Shown here piece by piece: positions 8,118 through 30,009 of a DNA stretch of 64,000 nucleotides (its first letter is position 1; the number at the start of each line of letters is the position of its first letter). A model generated the notes under the pieces. That model made no database searches. It was not told the DNA's origin and was given only the letters and a program-made list of their open reading frames with translations. The position numbers and the translations under genes are program-made. Source of the stretch: Escherichia phage allfine; sequence record MN850633.1; one strand, 5' to 3'.

Positions 8118-8121
8118 AAAT

Positions 8122-8214
8122 TGGAGGAAGATACCAGACTTGAACTGGTACACCGATTTCTCAGCTACTGGCAGTTTAGCAAACTGCTCCCTTACCTTTT
8201 AGGGTTAATCTTCC
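8122..8214 (-). tRNA. tRNA-Ser (GCU), type II with long variable arm
   Basis: Acceptor GGAAGAU/AUCUUCC, anticodon loop UUGCUAA, T-arm ACCAG-UUCAAGU-CUGGU, 93 nt. Confidence 0.6.
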
Positions 8215-8215
8215 A

Positions 8216-8950
8216 TTATTTCTGTAATGCGCTCTTCATTTCTGGTGTTGCAATAGTGTCAATTACACCAGTTTTACAGGCATCATCAAACCAGTCTGGT
8301 AAGATACCTGCTAAGAACCCATTGATATTCGTTTTAAGGTACTCTGCAATAAGGGCAGCTTCTTCTTCAATCATCTGCACAACTTCATCTGCATAAGCTG
8401 TAATCTTTGAGATACCTTCATTAATCTTACTGACAGCTTGGTTAGCTAAATCAGAAACAGTATCAAGACCCTTGTCAATAGCGTCTTGTAAGTCACTTAA
8501 TACATCGTTAACACTCTCTAGTGTACTGTTAATCGTATCAATAGCTTTTTGACCATATTCTGTAGCAACACCCATAATACCACTGAACGGTGTACAACCA
8601 ACTTGTTCTCCTGCTGCACCCATAACATTGGAATATCCCTTTGCTACCTGCATACGTGATGAAAACTCATCAATAGACTTTTGACCGTAGTCTGTTAGGG
8701 TCTTAGTAGTTGCTGTAGTGCTTGTAAGGCTTGTTGTAAAGCTGTTTAGAAGGACTGTTGTAAGTCCAGCAGCAACAAGTTTCTCCTGCATTGTAGGGTC
8801 TGTTACAGAACTAATAGAGCTTACAAGTGATGTAGAAGCAGCTACGGTTCCACCGAGAACTGCTGCACCAGTAATAAGTGGGTTAGAAAACCCTTTACCG
8901 GTTTTTAAGAGATTAAAAATCTCCTTACCTTGTTCTGTCATCTCTTTCAT
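8216..8950 (-). CDS. hypothetical Ser/Thr-rich protein (about 244 aa from internal Met)
   Basis: ORF 8216-9013 in track; upstream 60 nt overlaps a tRNA, so start placed at Met 22 (8950); embedded inside tRNA array. Confidence 0.45.
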   Translation of the reverse strand: MKEMTEQGKEIFNLLKTGKGFSNPLITGAAVLGGTVAASTSLVSSISSVTDPTMQEKLVAAGLTTVLLNSFTTSLTSTTATTKTLTDYGQKSIDEFSSRMQVAKGYSNVMGAAGEQVGCTPFSGIMGVATEYGQKAIDTINSTLESVNDVLSDLQDAIDKGLDTVSDLANQAVSKINEGISKITAYADEVVQMIEEEAALIAEYLKTNINGFLAGILPDWFDDACKTGVIDTIATPEMKSALQK

Positions 8951-8969
8951 TAAGCACCTTTGAAATTGG

Positions 8970-9043
8970 TAGTCCAGTGGGATTTGAACCCTCTTCTCAT
9001 GTTTTTCAGACACGCGCTTTAACCATATAAGCTACTTGGACTA
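8970..9043 (-). tRNA. tRNA-Phe (GAA), imperfect fold
   Basis: T-arm GAGGG-UUCAAAU-CCCAC, acceptor UAGUCCA/UGGACUA, anticodon stem CGUGU/ACAUG loop CUGAAAA; D-arm register ambiguous. Confidence 0.5.
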
Positions 9044-9048
9044 TAAAT

Positions 9049-9124
9049 TGGGGTGACCTACGGGATTTGAACCCGTATAGACCATGTTCACAGCATGGGT
9101 CATTACCATTTATGATAAGGCCAC
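9049..9124 (-). tRNA. tRNA-His (GUG)
   Basis: Acceptor GUGGCCU/AGGUCAC, D-stem UCAU/AUGA, anticodon stem CCAUG/CAUGG loop CUGUGAA, T-arm ACGGG-UUCAAAU-CCCGU, CCA encoded. Confidence 0.8.
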
Positions 9125-9155
9125 ATTTAAGGACTCTCGTAAGAATCCTTAGAAG

Positions 9156-9231
9156 TGGCAGCGGCATAAGGATTTGAACCTTAATAAGACAGCTTCAGAG
9201 ACTGCTGCATTGCCAGTTATGCTATACCGCT
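9156..9231 (-). tRNA. tRNA-Gln (CUG)
   Basis: Acceptor AGCGGUA/UGCCGCU, D-stem GCAU/AUGC, anticodon loop CUCUGAA, T-arm UAAGG-UUCAAAU-CCUUA. Confidence 0.7.
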
Positions 9232-9236
9232 AAATT

Positions 9237-9315
9237 TGGTACTCCATATCGGATTCGAACCGATACATAACACAGATTTTAAGTCTGGCCTCTCTGCCAA
9301 TTGGAGTAATGGAGC
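9237..9315 (-). tRNA. tRNA-Leu (UAA)?, Leu-like D-loop AAUUGGCAGAG but short variable region
   Basis: T-arm AUCGG-UUCGAAU-CCGAU, acceptor GCUCCAU/AUGGAGU, anticodon loop CUUAAAA; atypical for a type II tRNA. Confidence 0.45.
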
Positions 9316-9317
9316 AT

Positions 9318-9392
9318 TGGCGGGGGATGTTGGAATTGAACCAACTTCTTCGATTTCAAAGACCGAGGTTTTAACCTTGTAAACTAATCCCC
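9318..9392 (-). tRNA. tRNA-Gln (UUG)
   Basis: Anticodon stem UCGGU/AUCGA loop CUUUGAA, T-arm GUUGG-UUCAAUU-CCAAC; acceptor pairing imperfect. Confidence 0.55.
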
Positions 9393-9401
9393 TTTAAATC
9401 T

Positions 9402-9959
9402 TTACTTTCTCAGTGGATGAATAAAGAATGCCAACATAACTCTTTCCCTTGAGAATGCTCTTTCTTCTGGGACAACACTTTTTAGTTTCCATCCAATATA
9501 AATTCTCCAGTAAAATTGTTTACCAAAGATTTTAATTGATGGGATAAAAGCGAATAATCCCCAAGCATTCCTGTTCCACATTAGGAGATAACCAGTCTGA
9601 TTATCTTCAGGGTTAGAACTTACGTTGATATTACCTTTCCACTTAGTAACATCTTTTACATCTCTTCCTAACACATGGTAAGAGAAGTTATAAGCTTTGT
9701 TTCTCCAGAGCCATCCAACTCTTTGCATGTAGACACCTAGTTTACCAATCCATCTAATATTAGCCCATCTTTTAACGTGACCTTCATCACCATCAATTGG
9801 GTTGTCATAGGTCTCCATCCATCTGAATCCAAAAGGTAGATGTCCTTTCTTCTCACTGTAGAATGGAACTACAAAAGGTGCTAAGATAACTGCTAAGATT
9901 GCTGCAAATGGCTCTAACAAAGCTAAGAAAATCCATGAAGCATACTTCAAATATCTCAT
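9402..9959 (-). CDS. hypothetical membrane protein (185 aa)
   Basis: ORF with strongly hydrophobic N-terminus (two predicted TM helices), Trp-rich; embedded in tRNA array. Confidence 0.45.
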   Translation of the reverse strand: MRYLKYASWIFLALLEPFAAILAVILAPFVVPFYSEKKGHLPFGFRWMETYDNPIDGDEGHVKRWANIRWIGKLGVYMQRVGWLWRNKAYNFSYHVLGRDVKDVTKWKGNINVSSNPEDNQTGYLLMWNRNAWGLFAFIPSIKIFGKQFYWRIYIGWKLKSVVPEERAFSRERVMLAFFIHPLRK

Positions 9960-9978
9960 CTAAATAGCCTCTTTAAAT

Positions 9979-10054
9979 TGGCGCAGGATAAGGGATTCGA
10001 ACCCCTATTAACAGCTTCGTAGACTGTTGCTCTATCCATTTGAACTAATCCTGC
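9979..10054 (-). tRNA. tRNA-Arg (ACG)
   Basis: Acceptor GCAGGAU/AUCCUGC, D-stem GUUC/GAGC, anticodon stem ACAGU/GCUGU loop CUACGAA, T-arm AGGGG-UUCGAAU-CCCUU, CCA. Confidence 0.8.
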
Positions 10055-10059
10055 AAAAT

Positions 10060-10137
10060 TGGTGTTCCAAGACGGATTCGAACCGTCACTAGTACAAGGT
10101 TTGAGCTTGCATCCTCTGCCAATTGGGATACTGGAAC
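10060..10137 (-). tRNA. tRNA-Leu (CAA)?, Leu-like D-loop, short variable region
   Basis: Acceptor GUUCCAG/UUGGAAC, anticodon stem GCAAG/CUUGU loop CUCAAAC, T-arm GACGG-UUCGAAU-CCGUC. Confidence 0.5.
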
Positions 10138-10138
10138 A

Positions 10139-10213
10139 TGGTACTCACTAAAGGACTTGAACCTTTTTCTTCATCTTGTAAGGGTGATGTTTTACCATAT
10201 AAACTAAGCGAGT
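10139..10213 (-). tRNA. tRNA-Val (UAC)
   Basis: Acceptor ACUCGCU/AGUGAGU, D-stem GUUU/AAAC, anticodon loop CUUACAA, T-arm AAAGG-UUCAAGU-CCUUU. Confidence 0.65.
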
Positions 10214-10306
10214 ATGAAAGAGGTCTGGAGTTGTGCCGCTAACTCAACTCCGTGGAATTTGTTACGGTCTTCAGTTGACTCAAAGCGGTCTTTCACTTGA
10301 CCTCTG
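10214..10306. ncRNA. structured non-tRNA element inside tRNA array (candidate small RNA)
   Basis: Terminal 7-bp pairing AGAGGUC/GACCUCU enclosing hairpin GGAGUUG...CAACUCC; no T-arm consensus; fills gap between tRNA-Val and tRNA-Thr. Confidence 0.3.
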
Positions 10307-10309
10307 AAT

Positions 10310-10386
10310 TGGTGCTGCTCACAGGACTCGAACCTGCATTTCCATCCTTACAAGGGATGTGTAATAGCCAATTATACGAAAGCAGC
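10310..10386 (-). tRNA. tRNA-Thr (UGU)
   Basis: Acceptor GCUGCUU/GAGCAGC, anticodon stem CAUCC/GGAUG loop CUUGUAA, T-arm GCAGG-UUCGAGU-CCUGU. Confidence 0.8.
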
Positions 10387-10392
10387 ATTGTT

Positions 10393-10467
10393 TGGAGCAT
10401 CCAGAGGGAATCGAACCCTCAACCTCAGTTTGGAAGACTGTAATTTTCCCGTTTAAACTATGGATGC
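10393..10467 (-). tRNA. tRNA-Gly (UCC)
   Basis: Acceptor GCAUCCA/UGGAUGC, D-stem GUUU/AAAU, anticodon loop CUUCCAA, T-arm GAGGG-UUCGAUU-CCCUC. Confidence 0.75.
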
Positions 10468-10473
10468 ACTAAT

Positions 10474-10549
10474 TGGTGGAGAAGCAGGGAATTGAACCCT
10501 GTACTTAAGTTTGCAAAACTTATGTTTTAACCATGTAAACTACATCCCC
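10474..10549 (-). tRNA. tRNA-Ala (UGC)
   Basis: Anticodon stem UAAGU/ACUUA loop UUUGCAA; acceptor carries the G3-U70 wobble pair characteristic of tRNA-Ala; T-arm CAGGG-UUCAAUU-CCCUG. Confidence 0.8.
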
Positions 10550-10555
10550 ATTGTT

Positions 10556-10631
10556 TGGTACAGGTGGAGGGAATTGAACCCATCGTCTTACTGATTAAGA
10601 GTCAGCCGCATAACCATTTTGCTACACCTGC
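10556..10631 (-). tRNA. tRNA-Lys (CUU)
   Basis: Acceptor GCAGGUG/CACCUGU, anticodon stem GCUGA/UCAGU loop CUCUUAA; paralogous to the tRNA at 11790-11865. Confidence 0.6.
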
Positions 10632-10638
10632 ATTAATT

Positions 10639-10716
10639 TGGTAGGAGACAAGGGATTCGAACCCTCAAACATCTCGTTCTAAGCGAGATAGGTTTACCAA
10701 TTACCGTCAATCTCCC
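10639..10716 (-). tRNA. tRNA-Leu (UAG)?, atypical
   Basis: Acceptor GGGAGAU/GUCUCCU, anticodon stem UCUCG/CGAGA loop CUUAGAA, T-arm GAGGG-UUCGAAU-CCCUU; D-arm irregular. Confidence 0.5.
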
Positions 10717-10975
10717 ATTAAATCTTTTTAGAGAACTTCTAAGAACCTAAGCAACAAGGTTCCACAACAAGCTGTAATAACCTTAGAAGCCCTCTAAAAA
10801 GACCTAAAAAGGTCTTTGCATAGTCTTGTTTAATCCGGTGACTAGAACCTTTGGAGAGCTTGATATTATCTCTTCTCCGTGACACCTACTAGGTGCTTTA
10901 CTGTGCGTGTACGACAATACACTAGGGATACCAAAGCAACATCCGAATGAAGCTTGGCTTTAAATCTTATTAGGC

Positions 10976-11061
10976 GGTAAGTAAAGGAGTCGAACCCTCA
11001 CCGTATCTCTACAGTGGCAACTGTTTTCAAGACAGTTTGGCTACCATTAGCCGCTACCTAC
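10976..11061 (-). tRNA. tRNA-Ser (UGA), type II
   Basis: Anticodon stem ACUGU/ACAGU loop CUUGAAA, long variable arm, acceptor GUAGGUA/UACUUAC; boundaries approximate. Confidence 0.6.
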
Positions 11062-11075
11062 CCCTAATAAGACTT

Positions 11076-11158
11076 TGGCATGGGACGGAGGAGTTGAACC
11101 ACTTTGAAACGGTTTTGGAGGCCGTTGCTCATGCCTTAGAGTCTTAACATCGTCCCAC
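11076..11158 (-). tRNA. tRNA-like, possible tRNA-Trp (CCA), atypical 5-prime half
   Basis: Acceptor GUGGGAC/GUCCCAU with encoded CCA, anticodon-like arm ACGGC-CUCCAAA-ACCGU, about 7 extra nt in D region. Confidence 0.4.
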
Positions 11159-11301
11159 ACTATAATTCGAAGCTTACCGTATTTTCACAACACTGTAAAG
11201 CCCCTTCTCAGATTATTTACATGTTCTGGAAAACATGAGATACAGACCACCTCCTTACACGGAGACCCGATAAGGTCGTCTAAGTAATCTGCTAACTAAA
11301 T

Positions 11302-11383
11302 TGGTCGAGGCGGCAGGACTCGAACCCGCATACTCCACTTACTCGGTTAACGGCGGTTTAGAAGACCGCTGAGATACGCCCCG
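11302..11383 (-). tRNA. tRNA-like, possible tRNA-Arg (UCU), lacks canonical D-arm
   Basis: Good T-arm GCGGG-UUCGAGU-CCUGC and acceptor CGGGGCG/CGCCUCG plus CCA; anticodon arm GCGGU-CUUCUAA-ACCGC directly after acceptor; 23-nt extra segment. Confidence 0.4.
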
Positions 11384-11631
11384 TAATTATCTTTAAAGAC
11401 TCTCTTAGAAAGCCCTTAAAGATGCCCACCTTATTAATCATACCGTGGGCTAGTACGCCAAATTCTTTGATGAGGGATTGGAAGACCTCACTGGTGTTTA
11501 GCCTATCAAGCTACTGCCAGAAAAACATTGTCGTTTGCATTTATTTTAAATTTGCAAAATAGACGCTACGCAACGAAAACTAAGGTTACTATAAAGTAGT
11601 CACATCTCAATGTCAACAACTTTATTGAAAT

Positions 11632-11707
11632 TGGTACTGGTAGGTGGAATCGAACCACCGATGTTCCCTTATCAGGGGAGTGTTATAACCTTCTTAACTA
11701 TACCAGC
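11632..11707 (-). tRNA. tRNA-Ile (GAU)
   Basis: Acceptor GCUGGUA/UACCAGU, D-stem GUUA/UAAC, anticodon loop CUGAUAA, T-arm GGUGG-UUCGAUU-CCACC. Confidence 0.75.
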
Positions 11708-11708
11708 T

Positions 11709-11785
11709 TGGAGGTTCAGATGGGAATCGAACCCACATTCATAGGGCTTATGAGACCCTTGCATTACCTTATCTGCGACTGAACC
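11709..11785 (-). tRNA. tRNA-Met (CAU), elongator-type acceptor
   Basis: Acceptor GGUUCAG/CUGAACC, anticodon stem AGGGU/GCCCU loop CUCAUAA, T-arm GUGGG-UUCGAUU-CCCAU. Confidence 0.75.
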
Positions 11786-11789
11786 ATAT

Positions 11790-11865
11790 TGGTAGAAGTG
11801 GAGGGATTCGAACCCATCGCCTGTCAGATTAAAAGTCTGCCGCATAACCATTTTGCTACACTTCC
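11790..11865 (-). tRNA. tRNA-Lys (UUU)
   Basis: Acceptor GGAAGUG/CACUUCU, anticodon loop CUUUUAA, D region identical to tRNA-Lys(CUU) paralog. Confidence 0.65.
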
Positions 11866-12122
11866 ATTAAATTACCTTTGTAGATAAGCTACCCAGACTT
11901 GCTTAAGGTCTGTAGCGATGTGCCTTGTTGGGTTTAAATCTAGAATTTACCCTTTCACCCTTTGTGGTCGCATACTCACAGGTAAGCTTAATAACTTATC
12001 TACAAAGATAATTACCAGACCGTTGTTTATCATCTTAAGTGCTACCATTACACCAACTCGACATCTGCCGAGTGAAGGAATCGAACCTTCGCCTTTTCTT
12101 TACCGGAGAAATAGATTGTTTA

Positions 12123-12152
12123 AGTTTTGCTGTAAACGGTCTTCTGTAAATT
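12123..12152. repeat. repeat motif TTGCTGTAA-N2-GGTCTTCTGTAAA, copy 1 of 4 in tRNA array
   Basis: Near-identical copies at about 12205-12232, 12596-12629 and 12763-12790; CCAGACC partner forms long-range inverted repeat with GGTCTTCTG. Confidence 0.5.
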
Positions 12153-12204
12153 TGTTGAGCCAGACCAAGTTTTAAATTTTCAAAATTAAATTGGCTTGAA
12201 ATTT

Positions 12205-12232
12205 CATACATTCTTGCTGTATTTGGTCTTCT
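12205..12232. repeat. repeat motif copy 2 (TTGCTGTATTTGGTCTTCTG)
   Basis: Shares core with copies at 12123, 12596, 12763; upstream partner CCAGACCAAG at about 12163. Confidence 0.45.
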
Positions 12233-12294
12233 GCTCCTTTAAAGAATACTCGTAAGAACTCTTTAAGGGAGGGGCTAAATAGCCCTCTCAAAAT

Positions 12295-12371
12295 TGGCGG
12301 CTACGATGAGACTTGAACTCACATCATCTCCCGTGACAGGGGAGTATTTTCTCCAGTTAAACTACATAGCC
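12295..12371 (-). tRNA. tRNA-Asp (GUC)
   Basis: Acceptor GGCUAUG/CGUAGCC, anticodon stem CUCCC/GGGAG loop CUGUCAC, T-arm GUGAG-UUCAAGU-CUCAU, CCA encoded. Confidence 0.85.
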
Positions 12372-12376
12372 TTTAT

Positions 12377-12464
12377 TGGTGTGCCGTGTAGGAGTCGAAC
12401 CTACCGAGTCTCAATGACAAGGGATTTACAGTCCCCACCGCTACCATCTACGGGATAACGACAC
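12377..12464 (-). tRNA. tRNA-Tyr (GUA), type II
   Basis: Acceptor GUGUCGU/ACGGCAC, anticodon stem GGGGA/UCCCU loop CUGUAAA, long variable arm, T-arm GUAGG-UUCGACU-CCUAC. Confidence 0.75.
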
Positions 12465-12476
12465 ATTTAAATTTTG

Positions 12477-12550
12477 CGGTTAGTCAGGGATTCGAACCCT
12501 GTGCCATTCGCTTAACAGGCGACCGCACATACCTTATGTGCTTCCTAACC
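12477..12550 (-). tRNA. tRNA-Asn (GUU)
   Basis: D-stem GCAC/GUGC, anticodon loop CUGUUAA, T-arm CAGGG-UUCGAAU-CCCUG; CCA not encoded. Confidence 0.75.
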
Positions 12551-12595
12551 TTAATACATTGCCAGACCGTGTTTTTCTTTTATCCGCAAAAAGTA

Positions 12596-12629
12596 GTTTG
12601 TTGCTGAATACGGTCTTCTGTAAATTTGG
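12596..12629. repeat. repeat motif copy 3 (TTGTTGCTGAATACGGTCTTCTGTAAATTTGG) with upstream CCAGACCG partner at about 12571
   Basis: Same core as 12123 and 12763 copies. Confidence 0.5.
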
Positions 12630-12703
12630 AGGCGGGTGCAGGAGTCGAACCTGCCGATACCATGCTAATGAGACATGTGAGACGCCCTTTCTCTATACCC
12701 GCA
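12627..12703 (-). tRNA. tRNA-Met or Ile2 (CAU)
   Basis: Anticodon stem CAUGU/GCAUG loop CUCAUUA, D-stem GAGA/UCUC, T-arm GCAGG-UUCGACU-CCUGC; position 1-72 mismatch in one register. Confidence 0.6.
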
Positions 12704-12762
12704 ATTCTTAATGACCAGACCAAATATCTTCTTTGTCCGATTTCGTGTCAGATGAGTAGATT

Positions 12763-12790
12763 AAGTTTGCTGTAATTGGTCTTCTGTCAA
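12763..12790. repeat. repeat motif copy 4 (TTGCTGTAATTGGTCTTCTGTCAAAA) with upstream CCAGACCAA partner at about 12714
   Basis: Same core as other copies; on minus strand reads TTGACAGAAGACC. Confidence 0.5.
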
Positions 12791-12793
12791 AAC

Positions 12794-12871
12794 TGGCGTT
12801 CCAGAAGGGATTTGAACCCTCAAATATCCACTTTGAAAGAGTGGTGACTTTACCATTTTGTCTACTGGAAC
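12794..12871 (-). tRNA. tRNA-Glu (UUC)
   Basis: Acceptor GUUCCAG/CUGGAAC, anticodon stem CCACU/AGUGG loop CUUUCAA, T-arm GAGGG-UUCAAAU-CCCUU, CCA. Confidence 0.8.
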
Positions 12872-12878
12872 ATTAATT

Positions 12879-12955
12879 TGGTCTCTGTTGGAGGACTTGA
12901 ACCTCCGGCCTTACCGCCCCAAACGGAACGCTCTACCAAGCTGAGCTAAACAGAG
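12879..12955 (-). tRNA. tRNA-Pro (UGG)
   Basis: Acceptor CUCUGUU/AACAGAG with C1-G72 typical of bacterial tRNA-Pro, D-stem GCUC/GAGC, anticodon loop UUUGGGG, T-arm GGAGG-UUCAAGU-CCUCC. Confidence 0.8.
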
Positions 12956-21721: not shown

Positions 21722-22936
21722 AATATCTTAAGAGCCTCCTTAATTGGGGGTTTTTTAATTTTTTATAAAATTTTATCGGTTGTCCCAACCTCTGGGTCAC
21801 CATCATATGTGAATAAAGTATCTATCCTTTTTAACAACCTTCTTAATCTTACTCTCTATATAGTTATATAGTACTATATAGTATCTTAGTATCTATCTAG
21901 TGGTCTTAATAGCCCCTCTGTATAACCCTTCTAACAAGCCCTCTAACAAGCCATCTAAACACTCTTCTAACAAGCCTTCTAAACAACCTATACAATCATC
22001 TTAACCATCTCTCTATATCCTCTTAGAAGCTCCTATACACCTCTTAATCTCTAGGTTAGCTATGTTACCCTCTATAGGTGTTCACTAGGTACTACTAAGC
22101 CTCTATATAGACTGTTTTAACAAACTTAACAGGAATATCTTCACAGACCTTATCTCACAAGGTCTAACACGGTACTAACAAGGTATCTTATAAGCCTGTT
22201 ATTACCTGTATTTTTAAAAGACTGTCTAGGTAATTATTCAGAATCTTAAAATTTTTATAAAATAGGACTATCAAGTCATTTTTTAGGGTCTTTGAAGGAA
22301 CTGAAAAATATCTGATTAGGATGTATATCTGCTTGGTAGCCCTTAACAGCTCCCTTACAAGTACTTTGCAAAATTTTAAAATATCCTTAACAATTTCTTA
22401 ACAACTCTCTCAAGCTCTTAACAAATCTTCAAAGGTCTTAACAGATTCTTAACAGAACTAACAAGGATGTAACAGTTTCTTAACAGTTGATACATAGTCT
22501 TTACAGAGTCTTAACAGATGACTAACAAGAGTTAATTAGTTAATTTTAAAGAGTTATTTTGTTAAGATAATTAACAAGTTCCTAACAAGTGTTTAATCTT
22601 TTTAACAAGCTATTAACATGGTCACTATCTCTTGGTCTATAGTTCCCTTTCCTTCTTAGTGATTCTTTAAACATACCTCTTAAAAGCTCTCTATAGCTCT
22701 TCATAGGCTCTTTTAAGTCTCTTCCTAGTAGTTACACCCCAACTGTACAGACACCTCTTTATAGGGCTTTACAGGAGCTTTTAAGGCTATGTCAAAGACT
22801 CTTACAAGGCTTTTACGTGGTCTTAACAGAGATTTAACAAGGGGCTAACAAGTTGCTAACAAGTGCCTTAAAAGCATAACTATGTAGGGATTGTTAAGAA
22901 ATTGTTAAGAAAATGTTAAGGGGGCTAGCATTTACG

Positions 22937-23702: not shown

Positions 23703-24233
23703 TTACAGACTTTTGATTGTCTCGTCAATATCTTTTTCAATATCTTTTAAAGTTTTTTCTAAGTTCTTGATATTGAAAGATAAGCCCTCTCCTAGTGTCT
23801 TAGAGTAACCGCTAGGACGTGAGTTATATAGTTCGATTTCTTCCACTTCGAAGAGACTAACCAACTCACCGCTTACACTGTAAGCCATTGAAACAGTATT
23901 TACAGGGGCTTTATAAAACTTGTTTAAGGACTTGATAGAACGTTCATAAGCCATTTTATAACCGTTTAAAAGGTTTTTAACGTGGTTACGAACGTTTTTG
24001 CACTCATCTAAGTAAATCTCTAAGAATAACGGTAATAATTCCGCTACAGCTTGCATAAAGTGAGAGACTACAACAGTAGAAACATTACGGCGATGAATGT
24101 AATAAGCCCCGTTTTCTGACTTAGTGATGGTTGCAAAGTGTACCCCATTGCAGCGAAATTCGTATGTGTCTTTTACAGGTTTTGACATTACAGCATTTGA
24201 ACGAATGAAGTTGATAGCTTTAAACTTGTTCAT
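23703..24233 (-). CDS. hypothetical protein (176 aa), array gene 14
   Basis: ORF preceded by type A cassette. Confidence 0.55.
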   Translation of the reverse strand: MNKFKAINFIRSNAVMSKPVKDTYEFRCNGVHFATITKSENGAYYIHRRNVSTVVVSHFMQAVAELLPLFLEIYLDECKNVRNHVKNLLNGYKMAYERSIKSLNKFYKAPVNTVSMAYSVSGELVSLFEVEEIELYNSRPSGYSKTLGEGLSFNIKNLEKTLKDIEKDIDETIKSL

Positions 24234-24300
24234 TTTGACTCTCCTAGTTTAAGGATTTTATTTAGTGAGGAAGGTCATCCCTCCCGTTGATTAGTAATTT
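24234..24300 (-). repeat. intergenic cassette type A
   Basis: CATTTTGACTCTCCTAGTTTAAGG...GAGGAAGGTCATCCCTCCC copy. Confidence 0.65.
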
Positions 24301-24453
24301 ACTTGTTTTGATAGCTGATTGCAAGCAATTTTTTAAGCTTATCTATAAAGAATCTTTTAAGTGAATCCCTTTTAGATAAACCCCCTCGAACAAAGTTACC
24401 AATGTCAAGGGGTATTGTCAACACTTTTTTAAAAGTTTTTTGTAAGTTATTGA

Positions 24454-24795
24454 TTAACTGATGAATATTTTTTCAGGCTTTACATAGCTGATACGTTGAC
24501 TTTTTAGAAGGTCATCCCAGATTATCGCGGCAATGTGACCATATCCGGCCTCACGTAAGAGCTTCATTGCTTTACTTCTCGTTTCAAAACGGCTTGCGTA
24601 GTACTCACTATTCAGAGTTGTTTTCTTCCCTTCATTGTCTACATGAATAATCTGCATTACGTGAAAGGGGCTTGTGTCCTCGCCTTTGTTCCACTGTTCA
24701 AAGTATTTTAGGCACTGCATAGGCGACATCTTATCACTAACCTGAGTTGACCAAGATGCGCCAGCTTTATCGGTAATTACGGTTACATAAGCCAT
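24454..24795 (-). CDS. hypothetical protein (113 aa), array gene 13
   Basis: ORF preceded by type A cassette. Confidence 0.55.
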   Translation of the reverse strand: MAYVTVITDKAGASWSTQVSDKMSPMQCLKYFEQWNKGEDTSPFHVMQIIHVDNEGKKTTLNSEYYASRFETRSKAMKLLREAGYGHIAAIIWDDLLKSQRISYVKPEKIFIS

Positions 24796-24870
24796 TTTTA
24801 GAATCTCCAGTTTAGGACTTCATTTAGTGGGGAAGGTCATTCCCTCCCCGTTGATTGACAATTTACAGAC
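24796..24870 (-). repeat. intergenic cassette type A
   Basis: Conserved RBS block and hairpin GGGGAAGGTCATTCCCTCCCC. Confidence 0.7.
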
Positions 24871-24885
24871 TTTTATCAGGCTTGT

Positions 24886-25119
24886 CTAGTCTTTTTCAAT
24901 GATAATTTCATATTGACCGTCAACGCTGTCAAAATAGATGCCGTCTTTATCTTCTGTCTTAAAGTAGCATTGTATATCATCACTTGCGGGATAGTCTTGC
25001 CGTGCTATCTGGCAAACTTGAATAGCATTTTCTTTACTTCCTGTAAACTCTTCAAGCCCTTTAAAATCGCATGAATGACCATTACAGATGGAAAGGATGA
25101 GGTAAACGGTTGTAAGCAT
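24886..25119 (-). CDS. hypothetical protein with hydrophobic N-terminus (77 aa), array gene 12
   Basis: ORF; N-terminus MLTTVYLILSICNG may be signal or lipoprotein-like. Confidence 0.45.
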   Translation of the reverse strand: MLTTVYLILSICNGHSCDFKGLEEFTGSKENAIQVCQIARQDYPASDDIQCYFKTEDKDGIYFDSVDGQYEIIIEKD

Positions 25120-25162
25120 GATTTAAGCCCCCTAAAAGCCCCTACAAGGGGCTGATTAGTGT

Positions 25163-25729
25163 TTATAAGGTGATTGCATAGGTTTTTAAAAAAAAGCTCT
25201 TTAAATCCTCTTCTGCGATGTTTCCTGCCAGTGTATCCATGATGTCACAAAAAACCTGAATGCTGTCCGACTGTTGAACGCTTTTAGCAAGAAGCTCCAG
25301 AGACTCATCAAGATAGTTTAAATTTGGGTTATCCAATGAAGGAAGACAAAAAGGCGAAAACATCGCATTAAACTCGGTTACGTAAACCTTTTTAATCCAA
25401 TTTAAATCGAAGTATTCTGTAAAACTTGCTACGCCAGACATATTATCACAAGAATAATCATCATTTAATTCGTCCTCTGGAATATCAAGTTCCAAGATAA
25501 CAATGTTTTGGGTTTTCATCTGGAAAGCTGCCGTGATAGTGGCATTTCCTAACGCCTGTTGAATACCTTCGGATACTATCTCTTCCTCATCGTCACCATA
25601 GATTTTATTTTCTGGGTATACGTAAAAATTGCCATCCATATCCGAACAATTCCATGCACCTGATGGCTTATCACCATTATTAATCAGGTTGATAAAGTTT
25701 TCTTGAGTAGTACCGTGAAAGCATTTCAT
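25163..25729 (-). CDS. hypothetical acidic protein (188 aa), array gene 11
   Basis: ORF preceded by type B cassette. Confidence 0.55.
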   Translation of the reverse strand: MKCFHGTTQENFINLINNGDKPSGAWNCSDMDGNFYVYPENKIYGDDEEEIVSEGIQQALGNATITAAFQMKTQNIVILELDIPEDELNDDYSCDNMSGVASFTEYFDLNWIKKVYVTEFNAMFSPFCLPSLDNPNLNYLDESLELLAKSVQQSDSIQVFCDIMDTLAGNIAEEDLKSFFLKTYAITL

Positions 25730-25815
25730 TTTTTGAATCTCCAGTTTAGGATTTAGTGGTAAAGCTCTTTATCTGGGGCTTACTTTATCGAACTATAAGC
25801 CCCTTGTAAAGTACT
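25730..25815 (-). repeat. intergenic cassette type B: RBS CTAAACTGGAGATTCAAAAAATG plus hairpin GGGGCTTATAGTTCGATAAAGTAAGCCCC and upstream AAAGTACTTTACAAGG motif
   Basis: Copies at 26525-26610, 27594-27685, 28199-28286, 28545-28633, 29015-29102. Confidence 0.7.
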
Positions 25816-26019
25816 TTATTTGTTATTTTTGACAACTTTTAAGACTGCAAGATACCCTAAGCAATAAGAATCACCGAAGAGAGTCCTACCCATGAAAGAA
25901 TCCTCTTTGATATCCTTTGTAGTGACAGTTTTTTCTACGCCGTGGGAAAGGACTATATCGCCAACTTTGATATCTTTGATGTGTGTAGTTTCAATGTTTA
26001 AGCCGTTAATAATAGCCAT
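25816..26019 (-). CDS. hypothetical protein (67 aa), array gene 10
   Basis: ORF preceded by type A cassette. Confidence 0.5.
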   Translation of the reverse strand: MAIINGLNIETTHIKDIKVGDIVLSHGVEKTVTTKDIKEDSFMGRTLFGDSYCLGYLAVLKVVKNNK

Positions 26020-26090
26020 TTTAGAATCTCCAGTTTAGGACTTTACTTAGTGGGGAAGGTCATTCCCTCCCCGTTGATGTGTAATTTAAT
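26020..26090 (-). repeat. intergenic cassette type A
   Basis: Conserved RBS block and hairpin. Confidence 0.7.
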
Positions 26091-26119
26091 CTATCTAAAA
26101 ACCGGTGTCAACAAAATTT

Positions 26120-26524
26120 TTAGAGTTCTGCATAAATTGCATCACAGACATCACGAAAATCGTGATTTGTCAAATTACGTTGTAACCAAGTGGCAAAGAA
26201 ATCAGCGATTGCAAAATTAGCGTCATACTCGACGGATAGCCATACTTTAACAGCAAATCGAAACATTTTTAAATCAAGCTCTTTATTCATTATCTTTGAT
26301 TTGCCTAACATGTCAGCCATTTCATATTGTGCGCCGTCTAGCGTGATACCTGATGCAACGTCAGCCAATGATTTTTTTACGTTTTCAACGTCTAAGATAA
26401 CGCTTTGAATCTTCCCGATAATGTTGTGCAATGTCTCATCAGGCGCTGATGACGTGATAACATTAATCCGGTTAACGGTCAAACGTGCTTTTAAGATTGA
26501 TAATTCACGGTTATTAATAGCCAT
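26120..26524 (-). CDS. hypothetical protein (134 aa), array gene 9
   Basis: ORF preceded by type B cassette. Confidence 0.55.
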   Translation of the reverse strand: MAINNRELSILKARLTVNRINVITSSAPDETLHNIIGKIQSVILDVENVKKSLADVASGITLDGAQYEMADMLGKSKIMNKELDLKMFRFAVKVWLSVEYDANFAIADFFATWLQRNLTNHDFRDVCDAIYAEL

Positions 26525-26610
26525 TTTTAAGTTCTCCAGTTTAGGATTTAGTGGTAAAGCTCTTTATCTGGGGCTTACTTTATCGAACTATAAGCCCCCT
26601 GTAAAGTACT
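26525..26610 (-). repeat. intergenic cassette type B
   Basis: Conserved RBS block and hairpin. Confidence 0.7.
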
Positions 26611-26883
26611 TTACACTAAATGCAGCTTTTTACCTTTTACTATGATGTAACTCGATGCGCTATTGCTTTGCACATCCTGATAAATTCTGCGCAAACGGCC
26701 TTCGTAGTATACTTTCCAACTGGTTGGAATCTTTTTCCCGTATCCTGTAGCAGTTTTTTGTAGTCCTGCAAGTTGCCAATCTAAGATATGTTGTTCGGCT
26801 TGTAAATCTTCGAAGTGCATTACACCGTTCACATAGTGACGAATGGTTACGTTTAAGGTGCGACCGTTGTTAGTAGTGTACAT
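26611..26883 (-). CDS. hypothetical protein (90 aa), array gene 8
   Basis: ORF preceded by type A cassette. Confidence 0.55.
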   Translation of the reverse strand: MYTTNNGRTLNVTIRHYVNGVMHFEDLQAEQHILDWQLAGLQKTATGYGKKIPTSWKVYYEGRLRRIYQDVQSNSASSYIIVKGKKLHLV

Positions 26884-26960
26884 TTTGAATCTCCTAGTTT
26901 AAGGACTTTACTTAGTGGGGAGGTTATTACCTCCCGTTGATTAGTAATTTACTTGTTTTA
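26884..26960 (-). repeat. intergenic cassette type A variant
   Basis: CATTTTGAATCTCCTAGTTTAAGG...GGGGAGGTTATTACCTCCC. Confidence 0.65.
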
Positions 26961-28633: not shown

Positions 28634-29014
28634 TCAGTTAATTTTGAAAATTGTCACATAGCCGTCACTGCCGATTATTTGAGACACTCCAGCTTTTTCC
28701 ACTGAATAGCCCATATTTTCAAGATGATAAACAGCATCATCATAACCATATGCGCCACCCTGATAACGTCTCTTATCGCATCTTATCAGGTTTTTACCAC
28801 GTCCTGCAAGTGCATTCAGTACAGCTTTTTCACTTGATAGCGTACCATCTAACATGGTTGCCGTGTAATGGTTGATTTTATTCCCGTTAATATCATACTT
28901 AAAATTGAATGCGTGAATAACAATCAATTTGCCGTTAAATTTTTCATCAAGTGACTTCTCCAGTGCGTTGCGGAAGTTGTCTTTGTTGATGAATTTCGGT
29001 GCACGATAAGCCAT
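28634..29014 (-). CDS. hypothetical protein (126 aa), array gene 3
   Basis: ORF preceded by type B cassette. Confidence 0.55.
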   Translation of the reverse strand: MAYRAPKFINKDNFRNALEKSLDEKFNGKLIVIHAFNFKYDINGNKINHYTATMLDGTLSSEKAVLNALAGRGKNLIRCDKRRYQGGAYGYDDAVYHLENMGYSVEKAGVSQIIGSDGYVTIFKIN

Positions 29015-29102
29015 TTTTGAATCTCCTAGTTTAAGGTTAATGTAGTAAAGCTCTTTATCTGGGGCTTACTTTATCGAACTATAAGCCCCTTGTAAAGTAC
29101 TT
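29015..29102 (-). repeat. intergenic cassette type B
   Basis: Conserved RBS block and hairpin. Confidence 0.7.
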
Positions 29103-29309
29103 TTATCTATCGTAATAGTAAACCGCTGTCTGTTTTATATGTCGCTTTGTATTCTTCGTAAGGTAGCAATTAGAGTTGATTGCCGTTTCTACATAGTTGC
29201 AATAATCAGCTTCTGATATTCTACGCCATGCGCCGCACACTTGCATGTAAAAACGTTTTACCTTTGTATTAACGTTGGTTGTAACCATCAATTCACGGCT
29301 GTAAATCAT
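29103..29309 (-). CDS. hypothetical protein (68 aa), array gene 2
   Basis: Start taken at ATG overlapping upstream stop (TAATG) rather than track start 29324. Confidence 0.45.
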   Translation of the reverse strand: MIYSRELMVTTNVNTKVKRFYMQVCGAWRRISEADYCNYVETAINSNCYLTKNTKRHIKQTAVYYYDR

Positions 29310-29497
29310 TATTTCGCGCTCCATTTCTCAAAGAGTTCAGCAGGGAAACGTTCGCTATAACCTTTTAAGGAAAAAGTGTTATCTTTGTGGATAGCTTCCA
29401 CCTGATAAACCTTATAAGAACGTATAGTTAGCATTTTGTAAGAGTATTCGTGCTTAATGTTAACCTCATCGCCAACTTTAATTTTTCTTGATGCCAT
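29309..29497 (-). CDS. hypothetical protein (62 aa), array gene 1
   Basis: First ORF of array, preceded by GGAGAATCTAAGAAATG RBS and candidate promoter. Confidence 0.5.
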   Translation of the reverse strand: MASRKIKVGDEVNIKHEYSYKMLTIRSYKVYQVEAIHKDNTFSLKGYSERFPAELFEKWSAK

Positions 29498-29548
29498 TTC
29501 TTAGATTCTCCAGTTTAGGAAGTGGGCTTGATTGCCCGTCTGATGCAG

Positions 29549-29577
29549 ATATTAGATAACCATACTCAAAGAGTCAA
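29549..29577 (-). promoter_or_regulatory. sigma70-like promoter TTGACT-N17-TAATAT driving small-ORF array
   Basis: Minus strand reads TATTGACTctttgagtatggttatcTAATAT, about 45 nt upstream of first array ATG; same -10 as tRNA-array promoter. Confidence 0.5.
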
Positions 29578-29754
29578 TAGGAATTTTAAAAATATTTTTT
29601 TTTGCAAAGATTGTAATGAAACGGGTGCGCGCGACTACCATAAAACAGAACTACAATCAAGAATTATTTTTCAATCCGCTACAAATTTTTCTGTTGACTT
29701 TTATTTCCAGATGTGGTAGCCTTGTGAGAAATGGCGACATCCCTACCTGCACCC

Positions 29755-29945
29755 ACCTACCTGCACAATTCTAAAATGATTTTTCTTGCCCGACCTGATT
29801 TTTCTCTGCACGTTTTGAAAATGAAAAAGCTCTTTGGAGATTACCTGCACAGTTTGAAAATGAATTTTCCCTTTGGAGTTCAAAATTTTCTCTACAGATT
29901 TCTCTACAGAACTCTACCTGCACAATCCTGAAATGAAAAAGCCCC
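29755..29945. repeat. four direct repeats CTGCACA(A/G)T(T/C)(C/T)TGAAAATGA in non-coding leader region
   Basis: Copies at about 29762, 29806, 29852, 29922; region 29498-30009 has no convincing ORF. Confidence 0.6.
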
Positions 29946-30009
29946 CCTTACCTGAAAAATTTACCAGATAAGAAAGGCTTAGTCTATTGTGAATACTATA
30001 CAGAATTTC

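What the first reader, a model, noticed from the sequence alone, without database searches (positions are those of the whole stretch)
29498..30009. Leader region of the small-ORF array: promoter plus four direct repeats
The 512-bp non-coding region upstream of the array holds a TTGACT-N17-TAATAT promoter at 29549-29577 and four 20-bp direct repeats CTGCACA(A/G)T(T/C)(C/T)TGAAAATGA at 29755-29945. The repeats could be operator sites for a regulator of the array or additional promoters.
Basis: seen in the sequence. Interest (0 to 1): 0.4.

Follow-up and report, generated by a model that had tools for sequence, protein, structure and literature searches.

The report
Conserved four-repeat array in Felix O1-like phage
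A 512-base gene-free stretch of a Felix O1-type phage holds a conserved early promoter and four copies of a strictly conserved 19-base two-part motif, found at the same spot in every related phage genus examined and nowhere else in the genome; they look like docking sites for an unknown DNA-binding protein, possibly the phage's unmapped replication origin.

Summary
The window is a Felixounavirus, 99.4% identical to Escherichia phage momo. All flanking genes are on the minus strand.

The TTGACT-N17-TAATAT promoter (29577..29549, minus strand) drives the small-ORF array. Its -35 is invariant across genera.

The four repeats are at 29761, 29806, 29845 and 29918. Each is a 19-mer, CTGCAC-N7-AAATGA, followed by an A- or T-tract.
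- They give 4 hits against 0.15 expected by chance.
- They occur nowhere else in the roughly 88-kb genome.
- 3-5 copies sit at the same place in Felixouna-, Susp-, Moogle- and Kolesnikvirus, and in an uncultured relative with only about 50% protein identity.
- Among 28 distinct Felixounavirus sequences, 3 of 48 half-site positions vary, against 55 of 136 other positions (p=3.5e-6).

The repeats are not coding, not promoters, not a structured RNA, not CRISPR-like and not the genome terminus. The terminal repeat maps to 22335-22925. They lie 184-390 bp upstream of the promoter, next to the upstream operon's terminator, so classical operators are unlikely.

My best reading is an iteron-like array of protein-binding DNA sites, most likely a transcription-activated replication origin (about 0.3). 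Rivals are a regulatory array, a repeat-bearing plus-strand RNA that mimics a type III antitoxin, and a T5-like boundary element.

The array appears undescribed. Interest is moderate.

The parts
29549..29577 (-). Early sigma-70-type promoter of the small-ORF array: -35 TTGACT (29577-29572), 17-bp spacer, -10 TAATAT (29554-29549).
   Evidence: Found by the scan. The -35 is invariant in the 9-sequence alignment. Equivalent sites are TTGACA-17-TACTAT in Felix O1 and TTGACT-17-TATATT in phiEa21-4. It is annotated as a promoter in the ASO1A record.
29508..29511 (-). Shine-Dalgarno GGAG of the first small ORF (ATG at 29497), preceded by a short leader.
   Evidence: Read directly from the sequence. 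The CTCCAG block is conserved.
29580..29606 (.). A/T-rich tract upstream of the -35. It is UP-element-like and is also the only DUE-like (easily unwound, A/T-rich) stretch in the region. The 40-bp window 29580-29619 is 82% A+T.
   Evidence: this sits at about the 99.9th percentile of 40-bp windows. It is conserved as TTTTTAAAAATATTTTT.
29636..29699 (.). Conserved non-coding block of unknown role (…ACCATAAAACAGAAC…AATCAAGAATTATTTTTCAATCCGCTACAAATTTTTCTGTTGACT).
   Evidence: Identity is at least 90-100% across 28 unique Felixounavirus sequences. It is also kept in Susp- and Mooglevirus.
29694..29722 (+). Candidate plus-strand promoter pointing into the repeats: -35 TTGACT (29694-29699), 17-bp spacer, TG at 29714-29715, -10 TAGCCT (29717-29722).
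   Evidence: Read from the sequence. TTGACT is conserved in all Felixouna-, Susp- and Mooglevirus sequences. The counterpart in phiEa21-4 is strong (TTGACG-18-TATACT, 10 of 12). In G-rich-allele phages the -10 is poor (TAAGAG). None was found in L063. In the window it falls below the scan threshold.
29744..29752 (+). Partial extra copy of the left half-site with its flank (TACCTGCAC), specific to the window-type allele.
29761..29779 (+). Repeat 1: CTGCAC-AATTCTA-AAATGA, followed by TTTTT.
29806..29824 (+). Repeat 2: CTGCAC-GTTTTGA-AAATGA, followed by AAAAG.
29845..29863 (+). Repeat 3: CTGCAC-AGTTTGA-AAATGA, followed by ATTTT. This copy is missing in the BPS17L1/Si3 clade.
29887..29910 (+). Perfect 12-bp tandem duplication (TTTCTCTACAGA x2) in the long gap between repeats 3 and 4.
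29918..29936 (+). Repeat 4: CTGCAC-AATCCTG-AAATGA, followed by AAAAG. Its right half overlaps the T-run of the terminator on the other strand.
29939..29980 (-). Intrinsic terminator of the upstream (rIIA ... macro-domain gene) operon: a 17-pair stem followed by TTTCATTTCA.
   Evidence: Found, with the same site in Felix O1 and phiEa21-4. The G·U pairs favour the minus-strand RNA. In Mooglevirus the 5' arm is replaced while pairing is kept. It is annotated as a terminator in ASO1A.

Best explanation
The four 19-mers are cis-acting DNA sites. Each is an asymmetric two-part recognition sequence (CTGCAC, a 7-bp A/T-rich spacer, AAATGA) flanked by an A-tract, and all four face the same way. I infer that a sequence-specific protein, phage- or host-encoded and not identified here, binds one unit per site. 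The A-tracts would bend the DNA, so that the 3-5 bound units fold the ~180-bp segment into a nucleoprotein complex. This is how iterons work at lambda and plasmid origins.

The array sits in a large (512-bp) conserved gene-free region. It lies between the terminator of the upstream operon and the first early promoter, next to an 82%-A+T tract. In at least two lineages a promoter with no ORF reads directly into it. My committed guess is therefore that this is the phage's replication origin, still unmapped, or one of several. Bound protein plus transcription from the adjacent promoter(s) would open the neighbouring A/T-rich DNA for loading of the phage primase-helicase.

What is shown:
- the sites exist and are unique in the genome;
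- they are under strong purifying selection on the two hexamers and on their exact spacing;
- they are not coding and show no RNA structure;
- their position is conserved in every genus examined.

What is inferred:
- that the selection acts on DNA rather than RNA;
- that a protein binds;
- that the function is replication initiation.

My confidence that these are protein-binding DNA sites is about 0.6. My confidence that the function is origin activity is about 0.3.
For: - **Significance and uniqueness.** There are 4 hits against 0.15 expected. No other copy with one mismatch or fewer lies in an intergenic context in the window or in the remaining 25 kb of the 99.4%-identical momo genome.
- **Conservation.** The same array of 3-5 copies, in the same orientation and between the macro-domain gene and the early promoter, is found in Felixounavirus, Suspvirus, Mooglevirus, Kolesnikvirus and the uncultured lineage L063, which is only 46-58% identical at protein level. 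Erwinia phages match the 512-bp query only over the repeats.
- **Motif constraint.** In 27 unique copies from 7 representative phages (5 lineages), TGCAC and AAATGA are essentially invariant and always exactly 7 bp apart, while unit spacing ranges from 33 to 148 bp.
- **Selection within the genus.** Among 28 distinct Felixounavirus sequences, 3 of 48 half-site positions vary against 55 of 136 others (Fisher p=3.5e-6).
- **DNA rather than RNA.**
  - The 5 nt after AAATGA are either an A-run or a T-run. These are equivalent as DNA A-tracts but unrelated as RNA.
  - No consensus RNA structure or covariation appears on either strand apart from the terminator.
  - There is no Rfam hit.
- **Not coding.** Variable sites fall 15/18/19 by codon position. 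Unit spacings are not multiples of three, and reading frames differ between genera.
- **Units are individually old.** The flank of Felixounavirus unit 1 (TTTTTCTTGCCCGACC) matches the flank of Kolesnikvirus unit 2 (TTTTTCTTGCCAGACC).
- **Origin-like context.**
  - An adjacent 40-bp window is 82% A+T.
  - A promoter reads into the array.
  - Most relatives carry a G-cluster tract just downstream of that promoter.
  - The left half of the Kolesnikvirus units matches the DnaA box TTATNCACA at 8 of 9 positions in all four copies.
- **Not previously reported.** The Felix O1 genome paper reports no origin and does not mention these repeats.
Against: - No initiator or DNA-binding protein could be linked to the sites. 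Neighbouring small ORFs have no Pfam hit and only unknown-function PHROG families. The gene just downstream differs between lineages.
- Unit spacing (37-79 bp, irregular) is unlike the regular ~22-bp spacing of classical iterons, and no consistent helical phasing is seen.
- The array itself is only 60-70% A+T. The A/T-rich tract is 140 bp away and doubles as the promoter's UP element. Similar tracts precede many early promoters.
- GC skew only follows transcription direction and gives no origin signal.
- The G-rich tract is absent from this window's allele.
- The plus-strand promoter is weak or missing in some lineages.
- One copy is dispensable in the BPS17L1/Si3 clade.
- The replication genes lie elsewhere in the genome.
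- Nothing here excludes selection acting on an RNA.
Confidence: 0.3

Rival explanations
1. Regulatory array. A phage or host transcription factor binds the four sites and controls early transcription. It could act at a distance by DNA bending or looping on the minus-strand early promoter. It could also act as a roadblock or insulator, separating the upstream operon and the plus-strand promoter from the early array.
For: - The array always lies 180-225 bp upstream of the conserved early promoter in the window, phiEa21-4 and L063.
- It lies directly downstream of the candidate plus-strand promoter and directly after the upstream terminator.
- Direct, asymmetric two-part sites are typical of monomeric or tandemly binding activators.
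- Array genes are expressed early (PMC3185647).
Against: - No site overlaps or abuts a promoter, and there is no dyad symmetry.
- The motif occurs at only one of the many early promoters in the small-ORF array.
- The genes controlled would differ between lineages while the sites stay constant.
- No candidate regulator was found nearby.
Confidence: 0.2
2. RNA-level element. The plus-strand promoter makes a non-coding RNA that carries the four ~37-45-nt units. Each unit would present UGCAC...AAAUGA to an RNA-binding protein or endoribonuclease. Examples are a decoy or pseudo-antitoxin for ToxN-type (type III toxin-antitoxin) abortive-infection nucleases that cut at AA^AU (cleavage motif cited from memory), or a protein sponge.
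For: - The order promoter, then tandem ~37-39-nt units, then hairpin mirrors type III antitoxin loci. It is clearest in phiEa21-4, which has a 10-of-12 promoter and unit lengths of 39, 37 and 37 nt.
- The window-type allele has an extended -10 promoter on the plus strand.
- Every unit contains AAAU.
- Two metagenomic loci fished with the motif are genuine ToxIN systems. Their ToxI repeats contain AUGCAC-N7-AAAUGA and lie upstream of PF13958 ToxN genes (E=1e-47 to 1e-50).
- A phage-encoded pseudo-ToxI is known in PhiTE (PMC3475682).
Against: - The ToxI similarity is limited to the motif used for fishing.
- The units are only ~60-80% alike, irregularly spaced and not seen by Tandem Repeats Finder. 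Antitoxin arrays are near-identical head-to-tail repeats.
- The hairpin after unit 4 is a minus-strand terminator.
- There is no consensus fold or covariation and no Rfam match.
- A-run and T-run flanks are interchangeable.
- The plus-strand promoter is poor in Felix O1 and absent in L063.
- No similar sequence occurs in 5,426 complete E. coli genomes or 72,556 plasmids.
- Presence in every lineage examined at a fixed position suggests a core function rather than an accessory counter-defence.
Confidence: 0.15
3. Genome-entry boundary element, analogous to the phage T5 injection stop signal. The array would mark the inner edge of a first-entering, early-expressed end segment. It could act by binding a membrane-associated host protein such as DnaA.
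For: - The terminal repeat maps to 22335-22925, so the array lies 6.8-7.6 kb (about 8.5% of the genome) from the right end. Only small early ORFs lie in between.
- The same layout, at 4.8-7.4 kb, is seen in four other lineages.
- The left halves resemble DnaA boxes in Kolesnikvirus and L063.
- T5's stop region is a conserved untranslated repeat region with DnaA boxes at 7.9% (bioRxiv 10.1101/866236).
Against: - No two-step transfer is known for Felix O1-type phages, and the T5 DnaA model is itself an untested proposal.
- The window's own sites differ from TTATNCACA at three positions, and no consensus box lies in the region.
- The equally conserved right half is unexplained by DnaA.
- The distance to the terminus is not constant.
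- There are no inverted repeats or palindromes like those in T5.
- Which end enters first is unknown.
Confidence: 0.07
4. No present function. The units are decayed copies of an ancient duplication of the terminator-proximal sequence, kept only by linkage and low divergence.
For: - Each unit resembles 'weak hairpin + T/A-run + motif', as at the real terminator.
- The whole 29757-29980 segment is highly conserved within the genus.
Against: - Half-sites are about 14-fold less variable than the spacers and inter-unit DNA in the same alignment.
- Hexamers and their 7-bp spacing survive in lineages where all surrounding nucleotide similarity is lost.
Confidence: 0.05

Closest known systems
Iterons of phage lambda ori and of iteron plasmids (P1, F, R6K, pPS10, RK2). 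This comparison is from my own knowledge of these systems.
   Same: - Three to five direct copies of an ~19-bp sequence in one orientation.
- Asymmetric two-part sites, as bound by two-domain Rep monomers.
- A-tracts flanking each copy, as at lambda ori.
- Unique in the genome, in a non-coding region next to A/T-rich DNA and a promoter that transcribes toward it.
- DnaA-box-like sequence present in some lineages.
   Different: - Spacing is 37-79 bp and irregular, instead of ~22 bp.
- No initiator gene is adjacent or identified.
- No sequence similarity to any plasmid in PLSDB.
- Replication activity is untested.
Phage T5 injection-stop / repeat region 3 (Davison, bioRxiv 10.1101/866236).
   Same: - A large, highly conserved untranslated repeat region at the inner edge of an early-gene block, roughly 8% from a genome end of a terminal-repeat phage.
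- It is better conserved than the neighbouring ORFs.
- It contains DnaA-box-related sequences.
   Different: - The T5 region is 1.2 kb with inverted repeats, palindromes and paired consensus DnaA boxes, and lies inside a 10-kb terminal repeat.
- Here there are four simple direct repeats, 7 kb outside a ~0.6-kb terminal repeat.
- The box match is poor in this window.
- Two-step entry is not known for this phage group.
ToxI antitoxin arrays of type III toxin-antitoxin systems, and the pseudo-ToxI of phage PhiTE (PMC3475682).
   Same: - A tandem array of ~36-45-nt units between a promoter and a hairpin in a gene-free locus of a lytic phage.
- Each unit contains AAAU.
- A real ToxI family with AUGCAC-N7-AAAUGA exists.
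   Different: - The units are diverged and unevenly spaced.
- The hairpin belongs to the other strand.
- There is no toxin gene, no Rfam hit, no pseudoknot evidence and no similar host sequence.
- The element is present in every lineage examined rather than being accessory.
marbox (MarA/SoxS/Rob binding site, AYnGCACnnWnnRYYAAAYn). This comparison is from my own knowledge.
   Same: A ~20-bp asymmetric site with a GCAC element and an AAA(Y) element about one helical turn apart across an A/T-rich spacer, read by a single two-HTH monomer.
   Different: The AAA element is one base closer here. None of the four repeats matches the consensus with two mismatches or fewer. It is a model for how such a site can be read, not a membership claim.

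Membership tests
Sigma-70-type promoter (minus-strand early promoter at 29577..29549) | -35 and -10 hexamers close to TTGACA/TATAAT, 16-18 bp apart | tested here: met
   TTGACT-17-TAATAT, 9 of 12.
Sigma-70-type promoter (minus-strand early promoter at 29577..29549) | Conserved at the same position in relatives | tested here: met
   The -35 is invariant in 9 sequences from four named genera. Equivalent sites are found in Felix O1 and phiEa21-4.
Sigma-70-type promoter (minus-strand early promoter at 29577..29549) | Transcription start mapped just downstream | not testable with these tools
   Only RT-PCR timing of downstream ORFs is published.
Additional promoters at the repeats | A -35/-10 pair in register with each repeat, kept across relatives | tested here: not met
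   None in the window or Felix O1. Only two of four units in phiEa21-4 match, through a lineage-specific flank. The motif is absent from all other gene upstream regions.
Classical operator sites | Sites overlap or directly flank the regulated promoter, usually with dyad symmetry | tested here: not met
   The nearest repeat is 184 bp from the -35. The repeats are direct and asymmetric.
Iteron-type replication origin | Several direct repeats of ~17-22 bp in one orientation, unique in the genome | tested here: met
   Four 19-mers on one strand, and no other copy in ~88 kb.
Iteron-type replication origin | Regular spacing of about two helical turns | tested here: not met
   Spacing is 45/39/73 bp here, 39/37/37 in Kolesnikvirus and 38/148/36 in L063.
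Iteron-type replication origin | Adjacent A/T-rich unwinding element | tested here: inconclusive
   A window of 82% A+T lies at 29580-29619, 140 bp from the array, but it coincides with the promoter's UP element.
Iteron-type replication origin | Cognate initiator protein, usually encoded next to the iterons | tested here: not met
   Neighbouring ORFs have no DNA-binding or Rep-like domain. The downstream gene is not conserved.
Iteron-type replication origin | Supports initiation of replication | not testable with these tools
   Needs marker-frequency analysis or a plasmid ori assay.
DnaA-box cluster | 9-mers matching TTATNCACA | tested here: not met
   The window sites read ACCTGCACA or similar, with three mismatches, and no consensus box lies in the region. 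Kolesnikvirus units match at 8 of 9 in all four copies, but the total count in that locus is not above chance (6 against 3.4).
marbox (MarA/SoxS/Rob) | Match to AYnGCACnnWnnRYYAAAYn | tested here: not met
   No repeat is among the 25 matches with two mismatches or fewer.
Type III antitoxin (ToxI-like) RNA array | Near-identical head-to-tail repeats of 34-45 nt | tested here: not met
   Copies are 62-86% identical over 28-34 nt with variable spacing. Tandem Repeats Finder does not detect them.
Type III antitoxin (ToxI-like) RNA array | Promoter upstream and intrinsic terminator downstream on the same strand | tested here: inconclusive
   A plus-strand promoter candidate is present, but the hairpin is oriented for the minus strand.
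Type III antitoxin (ToxI-like) RNA array | Resemblance to a known antitoxin or an Rfam family | tested here: not met
   No Rfam hit. No match in E. coli genomes or plasmids. Similarity to metagenomic ToxI is limited to the searched motif.
Protein-coding ORF (plus strand 29731-29931, or as annotated in Mordin/BPS17L1) | Conserved reading frame and third-position bias of substitutions | tested here: not met
   Variable sites fall 15/18/19 by codon position. Unit spacings and indels shift the frame between genera.
Structured non-coding RNA | Conserved secondary structure with compensatory changes | tested here: not met
   There are 0 compensatory pairs on the plus strand. On the minus strand only the terminator is supported.
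Genome terminus / terminal repeat | Coincides with the physical ends determined in a relative | tested here: not met
   The 581-bp terminal repeat of Pr103Blw maps to window 22335-22925.

The most novel reading that the evidence does not exclude
The array is a boundary element for DNA entry in a myovirus. The ~7-kb block of small early ORFs next to the right terminal repeat would enter and be expressed first. The four DnaA-box-derived sites would then hold the DNA, at the membrane or on a host protein, until an early product releases it. This would be a T5-like two-step transfer in the Felix O1 subfamily. A related variant is that the same sites recruit host DnaA plus a phage factor to start replication.
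Probability: 0.07. Interest if true: 0.8.

Novelty: new member of a known kind. Interest (0 to 1): 0.45.

Why it matters
Felix O1 and its relatives are among the most used Salmonella and E. coli phages in typing, biocontrol, therapy cocktails and the BASEL collection. Yet their replication origin, their early-to-late control and their cis-acting DNA signals are unknown.

This array is a precisely defined, small and genetically tractable candidate for one of those signals. It is unique in the genome, present in every genus examined, and shows a clear selection footprint on twelve bases per site. That makes the open question directly testable with a handful of point mutations, a pull-down and marker-frequency sequencing.

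It also matters for engineering. Insertions or deletions in this apparently empty 0.5-kb spacer may not be neutral.

Tried and rejected
- **Genome terminus.** I suspected this at first, because several assemblies break here and Felixounaviruses have ~0.6-kb terminal repeats. I rejected it because the annotated repeat of Pr103Blw maps 7 kb away. The breaks fit assembly problems at the G-rich or bi-allelic segment.
- **tRNA or known RNA family.** None found.
- **Structured RNA.** No covariation.
- **Small protein with a repeated peptide** (YLHNSKM / SLHVLKM / YLHSLKM). Rejected by frame shifts between genera and the absence of codon periodicity.
- **CRISPR-like mini-array or tandem satellite.** The copies are too diverged and the spacing is wrong.
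- **Phage-specific promoter class.** The motif occurs nowhere else.
- **marbox, consensus DnaA box, and by-eye comparison with IHF, Fis, Fur, OmpR, sigma-54 and Chi consensus sequences.** No convincing match. Only the marbox and DnaA box were tested formally.
- **Host or plasmid counterpart of the array.** None in E. coli genomes, PLSDB plasmids or GTDB representative genomes.
- **Metagenome scan.** Apart from Ounavirinae contigs it returned only exact tandem satellites, coding repeats and one ToxI family.
- **Linking the sites to a neighbouring DNA-binding gene.** This failed.
- **GC skew.** Uninformative.
- **Literature.** Searches found no transcript map, origin mapping or mention of these repeats. 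One search was lost to a bad term and one returned only irrelevant papers. Intergenic fitness data for Bas63 are not available as text.
Full report
**Identity and layout**

The window is a Felixounavirus (subfamily Ounavirinae). The 1-kb stretch around the finding is 99.4% identical to Escherichia phage momo, and 226 phage records match it. All genes flanking the finding are on the minus strand.

- Upstream, in the sense of transcription, lie rIIA, rIIB, lysin, polynucleotide kinase, spanins and a 261-aa macro-domain 'phosphatase' gene ending at 30010 (Pfam Macro).
- Downstream, starting at 29497, is an array of small ORFs of unknown function.
- The 512 bp in between (29498-30009) are therefore both the 3' flank of one operon and the leader of the next.

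**Check of the observation**

The promoter TTGACT-17-TAATAT is present at 29577..29549 on the minus strand. The four repeats are at 29761, 29806, 29845 and 29918 on the plus strand. The degenerate 19-mer gives 4 matches in 64 kb against 0.15 expected, and no shuffle reaches 4.

The unit is CTGCAC-N7-AAATGA followed by a run of A or T. Spacings are 45, 39 and 73 bp. Allowing one mismatch, no further intergenic copy exists in the window or in the remaining 25 kb of the momo genome.

**What else is in the region**

- An intrinsic terminator for the upstream operon lies at 29980..29939 on the minus strand. Its T-run overlaps the right half of repeat 4. It recurs in Felix O1 and phiEa21-4. In Mooglevirus the 5' arm is different but still pairs.
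- Upstream of the early promoter's -35 is an 82%-A+T tract.
- Next comes a ~65-bp block of unknown role (29636-29699) that is nearly invariant in the genus.
- Then comes a TTGACT on the plus strand (29694). In the window's allele this is followed after 17 bp by TGgTAGCCT, a plausible extended -10 promoter pointing into the repeats. In 12 of 28 distinct relatives that segment is replaced by a G-cluster tract with a poor -10. phiEa21-4 has a strong plus-strand promoter at the equivalent place. The uncultured lineage L063 has none.

**Conservation**

The same array sits between the macro-domain gene and the early promoter in five lineages:
- Felixounavirus and Suspvirus, 4 copies each;
- Mooglevirus, 4 copies;
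- Kolesnikvirus, 4 copies reading ATGCAC;
- a syntenic uncultured 88-kb phage (L063) whose proteins are only 46-58% identical to the window's and whose nucleotide similarity is gone, 4 copies by the motif search plus one degenerate copy read by eye (about 5 in all).

One clade (BPS17L1/Si3) has three copies. Erwinia phages match the 512-bp query only across the repeats.

In 27 unique copies from 7 representative phages (5 lineages), TGCAC and AAATGA are essentially invariant and always exactly 7 bp apart. The spacer stays A/T-rich. Among 28 distinct Felixounavirus sequences, 3 of 48 hexamer positions vary, against 17 of 28 spacer positions and 38 of 108 inter-unit positions (Fisher p=3.5e-6 and 3.5e-7).

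Individual units keep their own flanks across genera, so the array is old and has not been homogenised. The gene just downstream of the promoter is not conserved.

**What the repeats are not**

- Not coding. There is no codon periodicity of variable sites (15/18/19). Spacings are not multiples of three, and reading frames differ between genera. The plus-strand CDSs annotated in Mordin and BPS17L1 are therefore spurious.
- Not a structured RNA. There are no compensatory pairs outside the terminator.
- Not a known RNA family.
- Not tandem or CRISPR-like repeats.
- Not promoters.
- Not a marbox and not consensus DnaA boxes.
- Not the genome end. PhageTerm-based annotation of Pr103Blw (PMC8303462) places the 581-bp direct terminal repeat at window 22335-22925, 6.8-7.6 kb away.

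**DNA or RNA?**

Three points favour selection on DNA.
- The five bases after AAATGA are either an A-run or a T-run. These are the same thing for DNA shape and unrelated for RNA.
- No fold is conserved on either strand.
- A plus-strand promoter is not universal.

Against this, the order promoter, then ~37-45-nt units, then hairpin resembles type III antitoxin loci. A metagenome scan with the motif did recover two bona fide ToxIN loci whose ToxI repeats contain AUGCAC-N7-AAAUGA. That similarity is confined to the searched motif. The phage units are diverged and unevenly spaced, and the hairpin belongs to the other strand. No similar sequence exists in 5,426 E. coli genomes, 72,556 plasmids or GTDB representatives. 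The RNA reading stays open at low probability.

**Most likely mechanism**

I read the units as asymmetric two-part binding sites for a sequence-specific DNA-binding protein. Flanking A-tracts would help the 3-5 bound sites fold into a nucleoprotein complex, which makes this an iteron-like array.

Several features fit a transcription-activated replication origin better than a promoter-proximal operator:
- the array is unique in the genome;
- it is present in every genus examined regardless of host and of the neighbouring genes;
- it is placed beside A/T-rich DNA and beside a promoter that has no gene to serve.

I commit to that reading at about 0.3, and to 'protein-binding DNA sites' in general at about 0.6.

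The weaknesses are real:
- no initiator has been identified;
- the spacing is irregular;
- the array itself has only modest A/T content;
- GC skew gives no signal;
- one copy can be lost in the BPS17L1/Si3 clade.

A regulatory array (about 0.2), an RNA decoy (about 0.15), a T5-like entry boundary (about 0.07) and a functionless relic (about 0.05) remain as rivals.

**Comparison with what is known, and novelty**

The closest functional analogues are lambda and plasmid iterons. The closest positional analogue is the T5 injection-stop region. The closest RNA analogue is ToxI/pseudo-ToxI. None passes a membership test here.

The Felix O1 genome paper lists only repeats of 24 bp or more, elsewhere in the genome, and names no origin. 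The GenBank records I inspected annotate at most the promoter and terminator. The array therefore appears undescribed. It is a new member of a familiar kind of cis-element, of moderate interest, and it is directly testable.

Noticed in passing
window 22335-22925: This is the homologue of the 581-bp direct terminal repeat annotated in phage Pr103Blw, so the physical genome ends lie here. It is packed with CTTAACA/TGTTAAG heptamers at about 11-bp period, in opposite orientation at its two sides. These are possibly terminase or end-binding sites. A similar TGTTAA-dense block lies 4.8-7.4 kb from the TGCAC array in Susp-, Moogle-, Kolesnik- and L063-type phages.
   Followed up: partly
window 29700-29755; L011 (Felix O1) 1195-1245: This segment exists in two alleles among Felixounaviruses. 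The window type (16 of 28 unique sequences) has an extended -10 promoter on the plus strand. The G-rich type (12 of 28) reads GGGGAGAGGGGGAGTAAGAGGGGGAGAGGGG, which in most of those sequences (10 of 12) is a canonical four-run G-quadruplex motif in a 39%-GC genome.
   Followed up: partly
L063 600-1010 (IMGVR_UViG_3300045988_063805): This uncultured 88-kb Ounavirinae-like phage has about ten TGTTAA repeats directly beside its TGCAC-N7-AAATGA units, the same heptamer that fills the terminal repeat. It also has a second TGTTAA-dense block ~7.4 kb away (L085 6500-7300). That hints at a link between the two kinds of repeat.
   Followed up: partly
L003/L005 (KhF1 KT184313), L006/L007 (TH10 MT446388), L026, L027, L029, L033: Several public assemblies start or end inside 29576-29725. 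The two record ends of KhF1 overlap by 377 bp at only 89.7% identity, and those of TH10 by 74 bp at 100%. These look like assembly artefacts at the G-rich or bi-allelic segment, not real termini.
   Followed up: partly
L092 12556-12610, L109 2638-2692 (metagenome contigs): These are two complete type III toxin-antitoxin loci: promoter, two 37-nt ToxI repeats, terminator and a ToxN gene (PF13958, E=1e-47 to 1e-50). Their antitoxin repeats contain ATGCAC-N7-AAATGA.
   Followed up: partly
window 29309-29497 and relatives: The first gene after the early promoter differs between lineages. A 62-aa ORF is present in the window and ASO1A but absent from Felix O1, SUSP2 and Mordin, and unrelated genes occupy the position in phiEa21-4 and L063. 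The array marks the border between a conserved and a hypervariable part of the genome.
   Followed up: yes
window 29000-29103 and similar stretches near 24232-26959: Short (~70-95 bp) sequences recur between the small ORFs at 85-95% identity. These are promoter/terminator cassettes like those reported as 39- and 57-bp repeats in Felix O1, and could mediate shuffling of early genes.
   Followed up: no
window 8042-12955: A cluster of 25 tRNA genes, all on the minus strand.
   Followed up: no
GenBank GU169904 (Staphylococcus phage SA1), hit H26: A record labelled as a 147-kb Staphylococcus phage carries DNA 89.5% identical to this Felix O1-type region. It is probably a chimeric or contaminated record.
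   Followed up: no
L002 1721-1909 (Mordin_126), L013 1008-1235 (BPS17L1 gp012): Plus-strand 'hypothetical protein' CDSs annotated across the repeat region in public records are very likely spurious. Their frames are not conserved and there is no codon periodicity.
   Followed up: yes
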